In this document: positions 17,732-22,613 of the stretch, one piece after another
Layout of the letters: each line of letters begins with the position of its first letter
How positions within the stretch are numbered: the first letter of the stretch is position 1
Virus record (IMG/VR): IMGVR_UViG_2529292906_000009
Coordinates: 1 to 64,000 of that record
Length of the DNA stretch: 64,000 nucleotides
Direction: 5' to 3' (one strand)
Source: a virus
Lineage: Duplodnaviria > Heunggongvirae > Uroviricota > Caudoviricetes
Notes under the pieces: model-generated
Databases searched by the model: none
What the model was told of the DNA's origin: nothing
Seen by the model: the letters and a program-made list of their open reading frames with translations, nothing else
Translations under genes and position numbers: made by a program

Positions 17732-17748
17732 AGATTTATTAGAGCAAT
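17732..17748 (-). promoter_or_regulatory. C1 operator (16/17)
   Basis: agatttattagagcaat read directly. Confidence 0.6.
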
Positions 17749-18254
17749 TATTGTTGATGGAGAAGCGCGTTTTCATACTCCCTGACCATTAACGTAAGTA
17801 CGCCGTGACTCCTGAAAACACGCGCCACGTCAATCTTATCTTCCAGCGCGAACGCAATTTTACTTAGACCAATTTTCTTCAGGAGATCAATCTTTGCTGG
17901 ACCGTCATTTCTGTCATCGGTGGCAGGACGCATAGATAGCAAAGGCTCAGTCCCATTTGTTACGTGCTTACGCAACCAGGCTCGTGTTTTATCCCTGGCT
18001 ATCTCACAGCGCCCGGTTACAAACCAGAGGGTGTAAATGCCGGACAACTGGCGCACCATATCAATAACTGGAGTGATGGGAGCATCAGTGTCACAGGCAA
18101 GGTTAAACTCGTTCCAGTGCTCTGTTAATGCACCTTTGCCAGGTGGTGGAAGTAAATGCAGCCTGTCTTCCGTTGCCTCTGATATCGTCCCATCAATATC
18201 TACTATGACGATGTACGGACGTTCCTGGTGTGCGTGTTTATTGAAAATACTCAA
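17748..18254 (-). CDS. HAD-superfamily phosphatase-like protein
   Basis: Motif I VIVDIDGTI (DxDGT) near the N-terminus; resembles phage-encoded PNK-type 3'-phosphatase domains. Confidence 0.55.
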   Translation of the reverse strand: MSIFNKHAHQERPYIVIVDIDGTISEATEDRLHLLPPPGKGALTEHWNEFNLACDTDAPITPVIDMVRQLSGIYTLWFVTGRCEIARDKTRAWLRKHVTNGTEPLLSMRPATDDRNDGPAKIDLLKKIGLSKIAFALEDKIDVARVFRSHGVLTLMVREYENALLHQQ

Positions 18255-18326
18255 ATGCCCTCCTCATTGGACGAAAAAAATGCTGGTGGGAGCACTCCAC
18301 CAGCATTAAAAGTGACACTGTAACTA

Positions 18327-19589
18327 TCAGCGAACGTAAATAGTGCCGCCGTTCTCTTTTTCCCATGCATCGCTACGTGCATAGCAAACATCGAGAAGTC
18401 TTCTTGCCGCAGTTTCCTCTAAACCCAATTCGACAACCAACTGCTCATGACGGCGGGTAACCACATCAAACAGGGTATGCAGCCCTTTAGTTGCCAGATC
18501 ATCAATGAATTCCGGTTCGAACGGAAGCTCTGCATCTGCCAACATAACCTCTTGCGCCCACTCAACTCGACGGACCAATTCCGGGCGGCGGCTTTCCATC
18601 TCTTTACAGATCAATTCATGGAAGAACTCTACCCAACCTTCCGGCTGGAACTCGCGGAAAATTGCCAACGGCTGGAAGTTTGGCATCAACCATTCGTTGA
18701 TTCGGATATCAATGGCATAGCCCATGTCGCAGCAGAACTGATAAGCAAAGTCCAGCTTAGACACGATATAAGGACGCTCGTTATTGAACTCTTTAGGCGA
18801 TGAGATCCCATAAGCCAGGAGGCGCGGGAAGAAGGATATTTGCCCTAACGTCGGATGAAGTTTGCTTGCAGGGAAACGGCGCTCAGTAATGCCATACATT
18901 TCCTTCTTGAGCGTCGCAAATTTGGCATTCTCATTAACCAGCGCGGTAACCTCTGCTTTTTTATTAGCAAATGCCACGCGCGCTTCGTTTGCATCTTTAA
19001 TAGTTTTTTTGAGCTGTTGGTTAAGGTCGGCGACCTGCTTACGCAGTTCCTGTCGCTCGCTTTTAGCTTTGTTATAGCGTTTCTCAAGGTTAAAAGGATC
19101 AAGTTTCATGATCTCTTTATATTGAGATTTTAGCGTTGAAATCTGTGAGTTCCGCAGTTCAACCATCGCGGTCATTTCATTGAGTTTTGTTTCCAGCTCA
19201 ATGCTTATACGTTCGGCATTATCAGCACGCTGGTTGGCGTCATGCGTCGCATCGTCGATCGCGTCCTGTTGCTGGCGTTTCAAATGTTCAATTTGCAGCT
19301 GAAGCTCTTCAATTTCTTTATCCTTCAGACCGAGATCCAACTGCATATTTTCAGCTGCATCTACCAGGGAGTTATGGCTATCAGCTTCTGCGTTATAAAC
19401 ATCAATAAGCTGTGCGTGAAGCATCTCCGCTGACTGAACCGCATTATCAAAAAAACGCGCTGTGAGGTCATCACAACTAACGCGGCGTTGCGCGGCCCGG
19501 ATGTTCTGGATAATGGCCGGGATACCGGCATTCAGGACGTCAGGGATAGATACATTTTCGATTGATTGGTTTTGTGCTGAAGTGATCAT
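18327..19589 (-). CDS. hypothetical protein with long N-terminal coiled coil (420 aa)
   Basis: Heptad-rich N-terminal half, globular C-terminal half. Confidence 0.5.
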   Translation of the reverse strand: MITSAQNQSIENVSIPDVLNAGIPAIIQNIRAAQRRVSCDDLTARFFDNAVQSAEMLHAQLIDVYNAEADSHNSLVDAAENMQLDLGLKDKEIEELQLQIEHLKRQQQDAIDDATHDANQRADNAERISIELETKLNEMTAMVELRNSQISTLKSQYKEIMKLDPFNLEKRYNKAKSERQELRKQVADLNQQLKKTIKDANEARVAFANKKAEVTALVNENAKFATLKKEMYGITERRFPASKLHPTLGQISFFPRLLAYGISSPKEFNNERPYIVSKLDFAYQFCCDMGYAIDIRINEWLMPNFQPLAIFREFQPEGWVEFFHELICKEMESRRPELVRRVEWAQEVMLADAELPFEPEFIDDLATKGLHTLFDVVTRRHEQLVVELGLEETAARRLLDVCYARSDAWEKENGGTIYVR

Positions 19590-19590
19590 T

Positions 19591-19890: not shown

Positions 19891-20592
19891 TTATTCTGAT
19901 TCTCGCTCAAAAAATGAGCTGATAAGGGGAAGCCAATCCTCTGACACTTCGCGAGGTCGCGGTTTGCCGTGGAAAAAGATTATTCGGCAGTCTTTTGGTA
20001 ATGCCCCATTCCCCCTGGAGTAACGCGCGCTCGCATATTTTGAACCAGGTTCCACAACATCGGCCTTGTAACTTACAAACCATCCTGGATACAGATCCTG
20101 AAATGCTGGTGTATCATCGCCCATAACCTTTCGTAAGAACCCCTGGTCACCCCAACACTCAGTAGTGACACAACGAGAAATCCAACCTTCCGGATCTTGC
20201 CAGAATGAACTCCAGATATGCGCTTTAACACTATTTGGTATCCACAGGGCACCGCTGCCACGATATTGTGGATGGTAAAAATCCCTAAGCATGGTGAAGC
20301 TGGTTGGTGGATGCTCTAGGATTGGGCGTATATCACCGGCAATAACCGTGTCCAAATCCAGATAGAACAGATCATCGGTTATATCCGGTCGGAACAACTC
20401 GATTTTCGCCCACCAGCCACGGCACTTTTGCCACTGGTTGATCAATGGGATAACTTTGACGCCAGGTACATGTAAACACTTCAGGTCTGTCAGGCAAATA
20501 ATTTCATAGTCTTTTGGCAGTTGATTAACCAGCCACTGCACATCGGAAGCGTTATAGTCACCACCAGAGCGAAGAACTAAAGCAATCTTCAT
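19891..20592 (-). CDS. hypothetical protein, possible nucleotide-sugar (GT-A-like) transferase
   Basis: FYLDLDTVI DxD-like motif; weak, inference only. Confidence 0.35.
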
Positions 20593-21281
20593 GCTGCACC
20601 ATCACCTTTCACTTTCATCAATGTCAGGTTTCCGCAAAATACGGCACCAGTGTCGATATACTGCTGATTCCAGAATGTCTTCGGGCTTTTCACCGGAGTG
20701 TGACCAAAGATAAAACGATCTGCGCCCGAAATTTCGCCACCAATATCATCCATCGAATCACTGATACGCTCGCGCGCCCAGACAACGTTGAAAAGCGGTA
20801 CCTCCTTACCGAATTGGTATTCATTATCCGGATAGTCGGCATGGGCTATAACGATAGTTTCTTGCCCGGTGTTCAACTCAATGATATAGGGCAGACGCTT
20901 TACCAGCTCCACCAGCGCCCAGGCTAATATTTCCTGATCAGTGTCCAGCATGAAGAACCATTGTCCGCCATTCATTAGCCAGTTATTCACGTTGCCATCT
21001 GGACTTAACGCATCAATCATCAGCCGCTCATGGTTCCCCATCACTGCCCTGAACCAGGGCATCTGCAATAGTTCCAGACATTCGACATTTTCAGTACCGC
21101 GATCGATAAGGTCGCCGACCGATATCAGTAAATCCTGCGCCGGGTCAAAATCCACACGATGGAGTTCGGACATCAGTCTGGTGTAGCAACCATGCAGATC
21201 ACCAACAACCCAGACATTCCTGTATTTGGTACCGTCGATACGGTGATAAATTGTGGGTGCCATCATGTATTCTTCAGCCAT
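20589..21281 (-). CDS. ppp: Ser/Thr protein phosphatase (lambda PPase-like calcineurin fold)
   Basis: GDLHG, GDLIDRG and GNHE metallophosphatase motifs; three genes separate it from the HAD phosphatase, as between recalled P1 ppp and pap. Confidence 0.75.
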
Positions 21282-21889
21282 TCTTTAAGAGTCATCTGCG
21301 GAATACCTCCCATTTTCCCGCATGAAACAACGTCAATCCGTTCACGCGCAGACTGGAATAACAAAGGCAGGTGACTTAGATTTTTTGGCGTGCCGCCGGA
21401 GTGAACGCGTGGTTCTTGTGTAGCGTCAACGCCCACCAGGGCGACATGTTTGAATCCGATATGGAAAGCCAGGTTCAGAGCACCATATGCACTATTGCCG
21501 CTGGCAATTTCATTCTCATCTTCGCAAAGTCCGAAATGTGCGGACCAGCGCCACGCCCACCACTCGGGAGAATTCGTATTTTTTGGCTCCATGCCACGTT
21601 CAGCCACACGACGGAAGCACAGAACGCCGTCTCTGACTTCACGTTCTTTAACATCGGGTAGTGCCATGCAATAACAAACACCACGGCGACGGCGGCCACG
21701 ACCAACGCGCCGCATATTGTCTGGCGATGGATCAAGTGTGAAAAAATAAGAAGCGCGGTTCAGCCAGTCGATGGCCCCATTGACCGCTATAATCGGCACT
21801 CCGCGCGGCGCAACAAAGTTTGCGGCGCTTGGGCCACTGCCGACGATAATAACGCGATCACTGCCTCTAAATTTATTCTTGGGAAACAT
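21263..21889 (-). CDS. hypothetical Rossmann-like protein (VGSGPS...IAVN motif), paralog of 21787..22416
   Basis: Shared IIVGSGPS and IIAVN motifs with the adjacent gene; loosely MptE/DUF115-like. Confidence 0.4.
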
Positions 21890-22416
21890 TGAATTGCACT
21901 GCTCCTACTTGCATTCAAAATATGTAAATCTGCGTGTTTTTTGCGGGTATCCAGGAACTGCTGTTGCCATTTTGAAATAGACACCTGCGTTGGATTCCGT
22001 AGGGCTTGAGGGTGCGCGCCATGCCAATGAAGGCCGTTTTGCAGAGAACAGTCATAGCCGACTAATACAACTACTTCAGCCCCTGATTCAGCAGCCAGAC
22101 TGATAGCCTGCGCGCCGCTATTTACCCCTTCCGCCGGTCCACAATATCGCCTGTACTCCAACGAAAATGATTTCGCCGCCGCCAGGTTGGCTGTCACTTT
22201 GCGGAATTTCCCTCCCGGTATGGTGGATCCGTATTGCTTCCACCATGACAAATCACCGGCGTATAAGGCATAAATGTCATCGAACATCTGCCAGGAATTG
22301 TTAACCGCGATGATTGAACAGCCAGTTTTTTCTATAGCAGCACAGTCCTCACGAGTGAGTGACGGACCGCTACCGACACAAAAAACAGTCCTAGTCGCCC
22401 TGGGTGGTATGTTCAT
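21787..22416 (-). CDS. hypothetical Rossmann-like protein, paralog of 21263..21889
   Basis: FCVGSGPS and IIAVN motifs; start set at the internal Met. Confidence 0.4.
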   Translation of the reverse strand: MNIPPRATRTVFCVGSGPSLTREDCAAIEKTGCSIIAVNNSWQMFDDIYALYAGDLSWWKQYGSTIPGGKFRKVTANLAAAKSFSLEYRRYCGPAEGVNSGAQAISLAAESGAEVVVLVGYDCSLQNGLHWHGAHPQALRNPTQVSISKWQQQFLDTRKKHADLHILNASRSSAIQCFPRINLEAVIALLSSAVAQAPQTLLRRAECRL

Positions 22417-22613
22417 TCTCAGCTGCAAATTCAGCCTCCAGGCGAGCATTCATTTCAGCGATTACCGGGTCCACTACAGCATCTGCTTCCTGTTCATTAC
22501 GCGGCATGATCGATGCCAGCGATTCATAATTAGCCTTGGATGACACGATTATTCTCCCGATGTTAATGTGCGCTGTATCAAAGATACACATATGCACTAA
22601 TTAATTTATTATT

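What the first reader, a model, noticed from the sequence alone, without database searches (positions are those of the whole stretch)
17748..22449. Cluster of putative nucleotide/sugar-modifying enzymes inside the accessory operon
Within 5 kb on one strand: a HAD-type phosphatase (DxDGT), a lambda-type Ser/Thr phosphatase, a protein with a DxD-like YLDLDTVI motif, and two tandem paralogs sharing VGSGPS...IAVN Rossmann-like motifs. The two phosphatases match the P1 ppp...pap spacing, but the paralog pair and the DxD protein have no function I can assign. The composition is reminiscent of nucleotide or glycan modification pathways.
Basis: inference. Interest (0 to 1): 0.45.

Follow-up and report, generated by a model that had tools for sequence, protein, structure and literature searches.

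The report
Phage P1 three-enzyme sugar-adding cassette
This is the already-annotated pmgO–pap region of phage P1; three of its genes of unknown function form a sugar-transferring enzyme set that recurs in many unrelated phages, usually beside the capsid gene, so it probably glycosylates phage particle proteins, while the two phosphatases are only neighbours.

Summary
Window 17748-22449 (minus strand) is the P1/P7 block pmgO-pmgP-ppp-pmgQ-pmgR-pmgS-pap, 98-99% identical to P1, P7 and RCS47, and every motif is present.

- PmgO and PmgP are ancient paralogues (hhalign 98%). Their fold matches the Maf flagellin glycosyltransferase and GT42 sialyltransferases, but also MptE pyrophosphokinase.
- PmgQ is a GT8-like DxD glycosyltransferase.
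- All three recur together outside the P1 lineage, in varying gene order and as natural fusions (O-P, P-Q, Q-P, Q-P-methyltransferase).
- The slot between P and Q holds a methyltransferase or an extra glycosyltransferase in other phages. Only the P1 lineage has ppp there.
- ppp, pap, pmgR and pmgS never travel with the cassette. In P1 they lie across C1 operators and a terminator-like hairpin.

The cassette usually sits directly after the major capsid gene, or between the lysis and terminase genes. One chromosomal island interleaves it with inverse-autotransporter adhesin genes.

Best reading: a late-expressed, dispensable protein-glycosylation module, probably acting on virion proteins as in mycobacteriophages. 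The target and donor sugar are inferred, and no P1 glycoprotein has been reported. A DNA or nucleotide modification role is unlikely.

The parts
21787..22449 (-). pmgO: Maf/DUF115-fold enzyme, putative glycosyltransferase. The conserved core is about residues 20-203. The last ~17 aa are not conserved and overlap pmgP.
21263..21889 (-). pmgP: second Maf/DUF115-fold enzyme, an ancient paralogue of pmgO and the most conserved member of the cassette. Its start overlaps the pmgO 3' end by 103 nt.
20589..21281 (-). ppp: lambda-type Mn-dependent Ser/Thr protein phosphatase. It occupies the variable slot between pmgP and pmgQ, and does so only in the P1 lineage.
   Evidence: Metallophos domain. 1g5b E 1.5e-94. 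NCBIfam protein-Ser/Thr phosphatase models match at E 3e-81, but at 272.5 bits against a curated cut-off of 326, so below NCBI's own threshold. Absent from every non-P1 cassette examined.
19891..20592 (-). pmgQ: GT8-like (retaining GT-A type) glycosyltransferase with DxD (D79, D81) and a C-terminal FHGKPRP motif.
   Evidence: The family profile matches GT8 structures: Gat1 6mw5 E 7e-8, glycogenin 1e-4, GlyE 5gvv 1e-4. hhalign against E. coli WaaJ gives 63%, E 7e-5. PHROG 1962 'glycosyltransferase'. Conserved residues.
19824..19889 (.). Pair of C1 repressor operators (P1 Op86b and Op86a) with the pmgR promoter. This is the boundary between the pmgN-O-P-ppp-Q unit and the pmgR-S(-pap) unit.
   Evidence: Operator-like matches at 19824-19840 (+) and 19873-19889 (-). 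Position equivalent to OpmgRb/OpmgRa in the P1 annotation.
19591..19809 (-). [quoted passage not shown] Not part of the conserved cassette.
   Evidence: P1 annotation. Deletion gives unjoined heads and tails (PMC9024508). No homologue in non-P1 cassette loci.
18327..19589 (-). pmgS: 420-aa coiled-coil protein, dispensable. Not part of the conserved cassette.
   Evidence: PHROG 1660. Only coiled-coil-type weak hits in Pfam and NCBIfam. Nonessential.
18279..18307 (-). Terminator-like hairpin (11-bp stem followed by a T run) between pmgS and pap.
   Evidence: Consensus scan. Function not tested.
17748..18254 (-). pap: stand-alone HAD phosphatase of the polynucleotide-kinase/phosphatase type (DIDGT), with a TTG start.
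   Evidence: Pfam HAD_PNKP 43.8 bits against cut-off 27.6. PHROG 415 and 505 'polynucleotide kinase'. Weak match to Pnkp1 4xrp. Found only in P1-lineage loci.
17732..17748 (-). C1 operator (P1 Op88/OpmgT), the start of the next transcription unit, which here encodes a pmgT variant.
   Evidence: One mismatch to the operator consensus. P1 annotation.
22391..22546 (-). pmgN: small first ORF of the pmgN-O-P-ppp-Q unit, preceded by the Op83 (Oppp)-equivalent operator at about 22591-22607.
   Evidence: Coordinates transferred from the P1 annotation. Sequence read. The operator has 4 mismatches to consensus; this was read by eye and not scored.

Best explanation
PmgO, PmgP and PmgQ form one functional unit, a mobile glycan-building cassette of tailed phages of Gram-negative bacteria.

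Proposed roles:
- PmgO and PmgP are minimal (~190 aa) enzymes of the Maf/DUF115/GT42 fold. They probably act as a pair, because their genes overlap, their products are fused in some phages, and both keep their own invariant active-site-like residues.
- PmgQ is a Mn-dependent GT8-like hexosyltransferase.
- In other phages a SAM methyltransferase or additional glycosyltransferases are inserted or fused.

Together the set would build a short, often methyl-capped oligosaccharide.

The cassette is repressed by C1 in the P1 prophage and is expressed during lytic growth. In most other phages it lies directly after the major capsid gene or elsewhere in the late region. It is dispensable for plaque formation.

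I infer that the acceptor is a protein, most likely an exposed virion structural protein, as shown for mycobacteriophage capsid and tail-tube proteins and for chlorovirus capsids. Maf-like PmgO/PmgP would add the first or acidic sugar. If they use a CMP-activated donor, the only candidate in E. coli K-12 is CMP-Kdo. PmgQ would then extend the glycan.

Ppp (lambda-type protein phosphatase) and Pap (PNKP-type HAD phosphatase) are P1-lineage neighbours with separate functions.

Shown: gene identities, folds, paralogy, synteny, fusions, genomic positions and operator positions. Inferred: glycosyltransferase rather than pyrophosphokinase chemistry for O and P, a protein (virion) acceptor, and the donor sugars.
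For: Identity with P1 genes.

O and P:
- Paralogy.
- Fold: Maf flagellin glycosyltransferase is the top match for both, with the longest alignments (158-165 residues); GT42 and GT29 sialyltransferases follow.

Q:
- GT8 profile matches covering DxD and the HxxGxxKP motif.

Co-occurrence outside the P1 lineage:
- In 13 of 13 evaluable non-P1 species-level genome loci, P has Q within 10 kb. O is present in 10 of 14.
- Further phage loci.

Fusions:
- O-P (P0171); P-Q (P0300, P0364); Q-P (P0385); Q-P-methyltransferase (P0349); methyltransferase-P (P0387); methyltransferase-Q (XacN1 ORF373).

Accessory partners are all sugar-pathway types:
- SAM and FkbM methyltransferases, a small GT-A, GT9-like and GT4-like enzymes.

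Position:
- TerL-portal-(protease)-capsid-[cassette]-head completion in L003/4, L005, L103/L114, L110/L129, L111, L115, L116/L121. After the capsid gene of a podophage in L006-8.
- A single PmgO-like gene sits alone in the same slot in L139, L144 and others.
- Between lysis and terminase genes in L009/10, L011, L112/L123.

Protein-acceptor hint:
- In five Enterobacteriaceae genomes O, P and Q are interleaved with inverse-autotransporter and Big_1 adhesin genes.

Dispensability:
- Nonessential in P1 (PMC10695390; PMC9024508).
- The slot is occupied in only 13 of 71 closely related capsid loci.

Precedent:
- Tandem glycosyltransferases plus an O-methyltransferase modify mycobacteriophage capsid and tail-tube proteins (Freeman 2023, as cited in PMC11600133 and PMC12619734).
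Against: - No glycosylated P1 protein has been reported. Two P1 cryo-EM studies at 3-4 A and the virion proteome paper do not mention glycans. These were text searches only; the maps were not inspected.
- The window proteins fall below the Pfam PF01973 threshold, and sequence similarity to Cst-II is not significant (E 0.2).
- No Pfam GT8 hit for PmgQ as a single sequence, and no structure model was made for it.
- In P1 the cassette is not beside the capsid gene. In Sinomicrobium (L109) and XacN1 it lies next to DNA polymerase or ribonucleotide reductase genes.
- GT8-like enzymes can also extend DNA-linked glycans in some phages (bioRxiv 2023.12.21.572611).
- The capsid families next to the cassette differ (HK97-type, T7-type, lambda E-type). 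I found no acceptor motif that separates cassette-bearing from cassette-free capsids.
- The CMP-Kdo idea has no direct support. hhalign against E. coli WaaZ gave only 13%.
Confidence: 0.5

Rival explanations
1. The cassette remodels a host envelope glycan (LPS core, another glycolipid or a polysaccharide) during lytic growth. One purpose could be to mask the P1 receptor, the LPS core glucose, so that progeny are not lost on cell debris.
For: - GT8 includes the E. coli LPS core transferases. The PmgQ profile aligns to WaaJ at E 7e-5.
- All named hosts are LPS-producing diderms.
- One precomputed faint hit of the O-P fusion to a WaaZ Kdo-transferase model.
Against: - The WaaZ link was not reproduced.
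- The cassette is repressed in the P1 prophage (operators), so it is not lysogenic conversion.
- Its usual place between the capsid and head-completion genes is not where envelope-conversion genes sit.
- The non-phage context is adhesin genes, not LPS or capsule loci.
- Newly made LPS would replace surface LPS too slowly within one lytic cycle (inference).
Confidence: 0.13
2. The cassette glycosylates a non-structural protein, either a host protein (takeover or counter-defence) or a phage protein that is not in the virion.
For: - The enzymes resemble protein-directed transferases: Maf, Gat1, glycogenin, GlyE.
- The adhesin-island context shows the trio can serve non-virion proteins.
- No glycan has been noted on P1 virions.
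- In P1 the genes are under an early-acting C1-controlled promoter.
Against: - Recurrent placement inside head-gene modules directly after the capsid gene, in at least seven unrelated siphophage lineages plus one podophage.
- No PADLOC or defence-related signal.
- No phenotype in antirestriction assays.
Confidence: 0.15
3. PmgO and PmgP are pyrophosphokinases (MptE or thiamin-pyrophosphokinase type) that activate a small molecule. The cluster would then be a small-molecule pathway rather than a protein glycosylation system.
For: - The only Pfam family hit is named after MptE.
Against: - Maf is the best match, with longer alignments.
- The motifs that are conserved (GxGPS, AVN, NSG/NSA, GxD) line up with motifs of Cst-II in the profile alignment. 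This part rests on my recollection of the Cst-II active site.
- Constant partnership and fusion with glycosyltransferases and sugar-type methyltransferases.
- No pterin or thiamin genes nearby.
Confidence: 0.1
4. One reading: all five enzymes (Pap, Ppp, PmgQ, PmgP, PmgO) form one nucleotide- or sugar-modification pathway.
For: - Same strand and tight packing. ppp is translationally coupled to pmgP and pmgQ by overlapping stop and start codons.
- The arrangement O-P-ppp-Q is kept in a Pantoea P1-like element at only 58-72% identity (L095).
- ppp sits exactly in the slot that elsewhere holds pathway enzymes.
Against: - ppp and pap were found in none of the non-P1 cassette loci examined. The later IMG/VR loci were scanned with models of the cassette and head genes only, not of ppp or pap.
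- C1 operators and a terminator-like hairpin separate pap from the cassette.
- Ppp is 64% identical to lambda phosphatase, which exists in phages without the cassette.
- Pap is of the polynucleotide-phosphatase type.
Confidence: 0.08
5. The cassette glycosylates phage DNA (hypermodified bases).
For: - GT-A and GT8-like enzymes take part in DNA glycan hypermodification in some phages.
- In L109 and XacN1 the cassette lies near DNA polymerase or ribonucleotide reductase genes.
- The late position near packaging genes is compatible with this reading.
Against: - The cassette proteins and their recurrent partners are glycosyltransferase- or small-molecule/sugar-type methyltransferase-like, not hydroxymethylases or dioxygenases. 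This was not a systematic scan for such genes.
- P1 DNA is classically restriction-sensitive and has ordinary bases apart from methylation (established knowledge).
- The knockouts did not change antirestriction.
- The adhesin-island context does not fit.
Confidence: 0.04

Closest known systems
Mycobacteriophage virion glycosylation cassettes (Che8, Corndog, cluster O phages; Freeman et al. 2023, known here only through citing papers PMC11600133 and PMC12619734)
   Same: - Tandem phage-encoded glycosyltransferase genes with an O-methyltransferase.
- Located in or next to structural genes.
- Dispensable for growth.
- Proposed here to act on exposed virion proteins.
   Different: - The hosts here are Gram-negative.
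- The enzyme families are different: two Maf/DUF115-fold enzymes plus a GT8-like enzyme.
- In P1 no glycan has been demonstrated.
- Homology to the mycobacteriophage enzymes was not tested.
Maf (motility-associated factor) flagellin glycosyltransferases, PDB 5mu5, Pfam PF01973/DUF115
   Same: - Shared GxGPS and GxD motifs.
- Maf transfers CMP-activated nonulosonic acids to Ser/Thr of a protein that self-assembles into a large structure.
   Different: - PmgO and PmgP are only ~200 aa and lack the N- and C-terminal domains of the 632-residue Maf structure chain.
- They score below the Pfam threshold.
- P1 carries no nonulosonic-acid synthesis genes, and E. coli K-12 makes none except Kdo.
- They always occur as two distinct paralogues.
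GT42 bacterial sialyltransferases (Campylobacter Cst-I/Cst-II), the source of the database label 'alpha-2,3-sialyltransferase' on PmgO
   Same: - The same order of nucleotide-binding motifs in a weak profile alignment.
   Different: - Sequence similarity is not significant (E 0.2).
- The lid domain is missing.
- The literal activity is implausible in hosts that lack CMP-sialic acid.
GT8 retaining glycosyltransferases (glycogenin, Skp1 alpha-galactosyltransferase Gat1, GlyE, LPS WaaJ/WaaO)
   Same: - PmgQ has the DxD motif and the C-terminal His-Gly-x-x-Lys-Pro motif.
- Its profile matches GT8 structures at E 7e-8.
   Different: - It is shorter (about 200-235 aa).
- There is no Pfam GT8 hit with the single sequence.
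- Acceptor and donor are unknown.
Chlorovirus PBCV-1 A064R capsid-glycan enzyme (two glycosyltransferase domains plus a methyltransferase domain in one protein; from my own knowledge)
   Same: A virus-encoded, cytoplasmic, multi-domain GT-GT-methyltransferase protein acting on the major capsid protein. The 616-aa fusion P0349 (Q-P-methyltransferase) has the same logic.
   Different: A064R comes from a eukaryotic virus. The domain families are unrelated as far as tested, and no comparison of structures was run.
Lambda protein phosphatase (NinI, 1g5b) and PNKP-type HAD 3'-phosphatases
   Same: - Ppp is a full-length orthologue-like match.
- Pap has the DxDGT motif and passes the HAD_PNKP model.
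   Different: - Pap has no kinase domain.
- Neither is linked to the cassette outside the P1 lineage.

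Membership tests
GT8 glycosyltransferases (for PmgQ) | DxD motif of the GT-A Mn/UDP-sugar site | tested here: met
   D79-L80-D81 are invariant in 55 homologues. They align to the DxD of Gat1 6mw5 and of WaaJ.
GT8 glycosyltransferases (for PmgQ) | C-terminal metal-binding His in the H-x-x-G-x-x-K-P-W motif | tested here: met
   In FHGKPRP, H208, G209, P211 and P213 are conserved at 90% or more. The motif aligns to the corresponding motif of 6mw5 and WaaJ. The role of the His is from established GT8 knowledge.
GT8 glycosyltransferases (for PmgQ) | Significant match to the family by sequence model | tested here: inconclusive
   No Pfam hit at E<=0.1 with the single sequence. 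The family profile hits GT8 structures at E 7e-8 to 1e-4.
GT8 glycosyltransferases (for PmgQ) | GT-A fold | not tested
DUF115 / MptE-like superfamily, PF01973 (for PmgO and PmgP) | Score above the Pfam gathering threshold | tested here: inconclusive
   Window PmgO scores 23.6 bits and PmgP 21.0 bits against a cut-off of 34.6. Sub-threshold hits occur in 33/34 and 42/42 relatives. The natural O-P fusion P0171 passes at 44.6 bits.
DUF115 / MptE-like superfamily, PF01973 (for PmgO and PmgP) | Shared fold with solved members (Maf 5mu5, MptE 8sd5) | tested here: met
   [not shown]
Maf flagellin glycosyltransferases | Three-domain architecture with flanking domains around the catalytic core | tested here: not met
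   PmgO and PmgP are 220 and 208 aa. Only 158-165 residues of the 632-residue Maf chain align.
Maf flagellin glycosyltransferases | Genomic association with flagellin and nonulosonic-acid synthesis genes | tested here: not met
   The neighbours are phage head, lysis or terminase genes, or adhesin genes. The Pfam annotations of neighbouring genes in the loci examined list no flagellin or nonulosonic-acid synthase family.
GT42 sialyltransferases (Cst-I/II) | Significant sequence similarity and a catalytic His equivalent to Cst-II His188 | tested here: inconclusive
   [not shown]
GT42 sialyltransferases (Cst-I/II) | Use of CMP-sialic acid | not testable with these tools
   E. coli K-12 makes no CMP-sialic acid (established knowledge), so the literal annotation is doubtful for P1.
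Pyrophosphokinases of the same fold (MptE, thiamin pyrophosphokinase) | ATP/Mg site and pterin or thiamin pathway context | tested here: inconclusive
   Fold similarity is present. The genomic context is glycosyltransferases and methyltransferases, not cofactor synthesis. Active-site residues were not compared.
Phage virion glycosylation systems | Several phage-encoded glycosyltransferases, with or without a methyltransferase, clustered in or beside structural genes | tested here: met
   In P1 the cluster is adjacent and divergent to baseplate and tail genes 26-25-7-24, and next to pmgR.
Phage virion glycosylation systems | Glycan demonstrated on capsid or tail proteins | not testable with these tools
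   No report found for P1. This needs mass spectrometry of virions.
Lambda-type PPP protein phosphatases (for Ppp) | Full-length match to lambda phosphatase and the Metallophos domain | tested here: met
   1g5b E 1.5e-94 over residues 11-229. PF00149 59 bits.
HAD phosphatases of the PNKP type (for Pap) | DxDGT nucleophile motif and a family model above threshold | tested here: met
   DIDGT at residues 19-23. PF25109 43.8 bits against a cut-off of 27.6. No kinase domain is present.

The most novel reading that the evidence does not exclude
Phage P1, and many other tailed phages of Proteobacteria and Bacteroidota, decorate their virions with a short, sometimes methylated glycan made by a previously unrecognised cassette. 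The cassette consists of two minimal Maf-like transferases working as a heterodimer plus a GT8-like enzyme. The Maf-like pair would use the host's CMP-Kdo, putting an LPS-type acidic sugar on phage proteins. In the P1 lineage the co-translated Ser/Thr phosphatase Ppp might clear phosphate from the same Ser/Thr acceptor sites. The same trio would also have been recruited by enterobacteria to glycosylate inverse-autotransporter adhesins.
Probability: 0.25. Interest if true: 0.8.

Novelty: new variant of a known kind. Interest (0 to 1): 0.5.

Why it matters
P1 is one of the most used phages in genetics, yet pmgO, pmgP and pmgQ have carried only the label 'putative morphogenetic function' since 2004. 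Knockouts gave no phenotype.

Showing that they are one conserved glycosylation module does several things:
- It gives a concrete, cheap experiment using mutants that have already been made and described: mass spectrometry or glycoprotein staining of wild-type and deletion virions.
- It would extend virion glycosylation from actinobacteriophages to phages of Gram-negative bacteria.
- That matters for phage immunogenicity, serum stability and phage-therapy design.
- It identifies a minimal two-paralogue version of the Maf/sialyltransferase fold.
- It suggests a possible adhesin-glycosylation system in enterobacteria.

It also corrects the impression that the two phosphatases belong to the same pathway.

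Tried and rejected
- **WaaZ / Kdo-transferase link.** A precomputed 'faint' hit of the O-P fusion to PF27901 was not reproduced in a direct Pfam scan. hhalign of both families against E. coli K-12 WaaZ gave 13% probability. I dropped it as evidence.
- **IMG/VR scan with the PmgP alignment** returned only P1-like contigs at 99-100% identity. I replaced it with the species-dereplicated genome scan and with scans seeded by the accessory methyltransferase and small GT-A that P1 lacks.
- **Joint alignment of O and P families on the O-P fusion.** It placed both families on the second half. It was therefore useless for modelling the fusion, so I modelled the two proteins separately.
- **The afdb50 fold library** was unavailable.
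- **Freeman et al. 2023** is not held. It is cited only through papers that cite it.
- **Single-sequence PDB searches** for PmgO and PmgQ gave nothing significant. The PmgP profile search against PDB sequences was empty.
- **NCBIfam and PADLOC** have no model for O, P or Q.
- **Acceptor motif in capsid C-termini.** Cassette-bearing capsids end in short Ser/Gly tails. However, 58 cassette-free relatives have similar Ser/Thr/Gly/Ala tails, and the cassette-bearing ones are phylogenetically clustered. Inconclusive.
- **Literature searches** for any functional study of pmgO, pmgP or pmgQ, or for glycosylated capsids of Gram-negative phages, found none.
- **Rejected:** recent tandem duplication (identity is only about 25% and both families are old); lysogenic conversion (the cassette is C1-repressed); an anti-restriction role (published negative result).

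Full report
**What is there**

Window 17000-23500 is 98-99% identical to phages RCS47, JL22, SJ46, P7 and P1. On the minus strand, the ORFs at 21787-22449, 21263-21889, 20589-21281, 19891-20592, 19591-19809, 18327-19589 and 17748-18254 correspond one to one to P1 pmgO, pmgP, ppp, pmgQ, pmgR, pmgS and pap. RefSeq relabels pmgO as 'alpha-2,3-sialyltransferase' and pmgQ as 'glycosyltransferase'. pmgP keeps a meaningless name.

**What was known about function**

A genome-wide CRISPRi screen and a deletion library agree that pmgO, pmgP, ppp, pmgQ, pmgS and pap are dispensable for plaque formation. pmgR is essential by deletion (PMC10695390). The 24 viable knockouts showed no plaquing defect and no change in antirestriction. 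pmgR mutants make unjoined heads and tails (PMC9024508). I found no paper that studies pmgO, pmgP or pmgQ.

**The two phosphatases**

- Ppp is a full-length relative of lambda protein phosphatase (1g5b, E 1.5e-94).
- Pap has DIDGT and passes Pfam HAD_PNKP, the phosphatase domain of polynucleotide kinase-phosphatases. Its PHROG families are named 'polynucleotide kinase'.

**The paralogue pair**

- BLASTP between PmgO and PmgP is weak (E 0.004). Profiles built from 34 and 42 homologues match at 98% probability, E 1.5e-13. They share GSGPS, AVN, an Asp at the end of strand 3, WW, NS(G/A) and GxD.
- Each family has its own large set of invariant residues.
- Both hit Pfam PF01973 (DUF115/MptE-like) below threshold in nearly every member. 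A natural O-P fusion passes the threshold.
- The AlphaFold models are confident: pLDDT 85.5 and 95.2.
- The fold therefore allows two chemistries. The context, described below, favours glycosyl transfer.

**The DxD protein**

A profile of 55 PmgQ homologues matches GT8 structures: Skp1 alpha-galactosyltransferase Gat1 (E 7e-8), glycogenin and GlyE (1e-4). It aligns to E. coli WaaJ at E 7e-5. The invariant D79-x-D81 and the conserved FHGKPRP correspond to the GT8 metal-binding DxD and His motif (the motif roles are from established GT8 knowledge).

**The three genes travel together, without the phosphatases**

- tblastn of all window proteins against loci fetched through distant homologues found O, P and Q adjacent in several places:
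  - a Citrobacter rodentium lambdoid prophage, with no ppp between P and Q;
  - a podophage-like contig, where O and P are one 376-aa protein;
  - Onishia and Martelella prophages.
- A scan of one genome per species gave 17 loci.
  - Outside the three P1-lineage loci, Q lies within 10 kb of P in 13 of 13 evaluable cases.
  - O is present in 10 of 14.
  - ppp, pap, pmgR and pmgS are present in none.
- Hosts span Enterobacterales, Pseudomonas, Zhongshania, Alloalcanivorax, Onishia, Ochrobactrum, Martelella, Brevundimonas, Commensalibacter, Methylophilaceae and Sinomicrobium. All are diderms.
- An exhaustive HMM search found 582 clusters at 50% identity for the PmgP family. Among them are these fusions:
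  - P-Q: P0300, P0364;
  - Q-P: P0385;
  - Q-P-SAM methyltransferase: P0349, 616 aa;
  - methyltransferase-P: P0387;
  - P plus a second DUF115 domain: P0407, P0428.
- Jumbo phage XacN1 has a methyltransferase-Q fusion next to O- and P-like genes.

**The variable slot**

Between P and Q, or flanking them, other phages carry one of the following:
- a class I SAM methyltransferase (L103, L108, L112, L114-L123);
- an FkbM or Methyltransf_24 methyltransferase (L109, L006, L004);
- a small GT-A related to PF03407 (L011, L104, L110, L129, L130);
- GT9-like proteins (L012);
- a GT4-like protein (EP_H11).

In the P1 lineage, including a Pantoea relative at 58-72% identity, that slot holds ppp. All partners elsewhere are sugar-pathway enzymes. 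This supports a glycan assembly line and makes ppp look like a lineage-specific insertion.

**Where the cassette sits**

- In HK97-type prophages and viral contigs the order is terminase-portal-protease-capsid-[cassette]-head-tail connector/head completion. Examples are L003/4, L005, L103/L114, L110/L129, L111, L115 and L116/L121. In a T7-like contig the cassette follows the capsid gene (L006-8).
- Among 71 evaluable contigs with capsids 50-82% identical to one of these, 13 have a cassette gene in that slot and 58 do not. Ten of the 13 carry a PmgO-like gene but no other cassette gene; for L139 and L144 the full slot was read, and there the PmgO-like gene sits between the capsid and connector genes. 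It is therefore an accessory element of the head module.
- In three lambdoid or P22-like lineages the cassette lies between the lysis and terminase genes.
- Exceptions are Sinomicrobium L109 and XacN1, next to DNA polymerase or ribonucleotide reductase genes, and L012, after the tail genes.
- In five Enterobacteriaceae chromosomes O, P and Q are interleaved with an inverse autotransporter (IAT_beta plus seven Big_1 domains) and three other Big_1 proteins beside an integrase. That points to a protein acceptor.

**Organisation in this window**

- C1-operator-like sites lie at 23498-23514, 19824-19840, 19873-19889 and 17732-17748. There are 13 in the whole window against 0.3 expected. They match the annotated P1 operators Op82, Op86b, Op86a and Op88.
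- The Op83-equivalent upstream of pmgN is degenerate. I read this by eye.
- pmgO and pmgP overlap by 103 nt, as they do by 49 nt in C. rodentium. Together with the O-P fusion, this suggests coupled synthesis and a heterodimer. This is inference.

**Mechanism proposed**

During lytic growth the cytoplasmic enzymes PmgO/PmgP (Maf-like) and PmgQ (GT8-like) build a short glycan on a protein acceptor, most likely an exposed virion protein. Relatives add methyl caps or further sugars. The precedent is the mycobacteriophage system, in which tandem glycosyltransferases plus an O-methyltransferase modify capsid and tail-tube subunits and blunt antibody recognition (as cited in PMC11600133 and PMC12619734). 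If PmgO/PmgP use a CMP-activated sugar as their structural relatives do, CMP-Kdo is the only such donor in E. coli K-12 (established knowledge). I could not support this by sequence.

**Weak points**

- Nobody has reported glycans on P1 virions, including two cryo-EM studies.
- The fold is shared with pyrophosphokinases.
- PmgQ has no structure model.
- No acceptor motif emerged.
- Some GT8-like phage enzymes act on DNA-linked glycans. However, the cassette lacks the enzymes that create the required hydroxymethyl bases, and P1 DNA is classically restriction-sensitive.

**Verdict**

- The finding is real, and the genes are already annotated.
- The added value is a testable assignment for three long-standing P1 genes of unknown function, and recognition of a widespread phage cassette.
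- I rate this a new variant of a known kind (phage virion glycosylation), with moderate interest until a glycan is shown.

Noticed in passing
L097:2235-16419 (also L098-L101): In five Enterobacteriaceae/Pseudescherichia chromosomes, homologues of pmgO, pmgP and pmgQ are interleaved with a 1178-aa inverse autotransporter (IAT_beta plus seven Big_1 domains) and three more Big_1 proteins beside an integrase. This may be an adhesin-glycosylation island.
   Followed up: partly
P0349, P0300, P0364, P0385, P0387, P0171; L132:6636-7952 (XacN1 ORF373): Natural fusion proteins join cassette members in different orders: Q-P-methyltransferase (616 aa), P-Q, Q-P, methyltransferase-P, O-P, and methyltransferase-Q.
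   Followed up: yes
L131:6965-7603 (Escherichia phage EP_H11, OP688485): The pmgP homologue of this cultured phage is not annotated in the record. It lies in the gap between two called genes. Between it and the pmgQ homologue sits a 322-aa protein that looks GT4-like; I read this by eye only.
   Followed up: partly
window 18279-18307 (minus strand): A strong terminator-like hairpin (11-bp stem, T run) lies between pmgS and pap. No terminator appears at this position among the features of the P1 record that I retrieved.
   Followed up: no
window 16948-17553 (minus strand): The gene after pap is a shortened, mosaic PmgT: 201 aa against 309 aa in P1, 60% identity, with conserved ends and a replaced middle. 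RCS47 and P7 stop aligning at window 17121.
   Followed up: partly
window, 13 sites (e.g. 55-71, 138-154, 33841-33857, 37363-37379, 54095-54111, 55768-55784): C1 repressor operator-like 17-mers occur 13 times in the window against 0.3 expected by chance. This maps the immunity-controlled units of this P1-like genome.
   Followed up: no
L004:5268-6590, L005:5849-7243, L103:7841-9214, L110:5179-6375, L111:4900-6330; L133-L212: HK97-type capsid proteins next to the cassette end in short Ser/Gly tails (..GNVSG, ..IGSSGA, ..LSGAS, ..SLSES). Ten of 13 cassette-bearing relatives have 'TGS' where most cassette-free ones have 'TGP' or 'TGK'. The lineages are not independent, so this is only a lead for an acceptor site.
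   Followed up: partly
L139:6262-6906, L144:6358-6918: Some prophage-like contigs carry a single PmgO-like gene alone between the capsid and head-tail connector genes. This is a one-enzyme minimal version of the cassette.
   Followed up: partly
public annotations of pmgP and pmgO homologues: The misspelling 'norphogenetic protein' from the original P1 record has spread as the product name of hundreds of database entries. 'Pap = acid phosphatase' also persists, although the protein matches PNKP-type phosphatases.
   Followed up: no
window 22614-23192 (minus strand): pmgM, just upstream of the cluster, is a VRR-NUC/Holliday-junction-resolvase-like nuclease (Pfam 21.2 bits, just under threshold; PHROG 5702). 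It is still labelled as a putative morphogenetic gene in P1.
   Followed up: no
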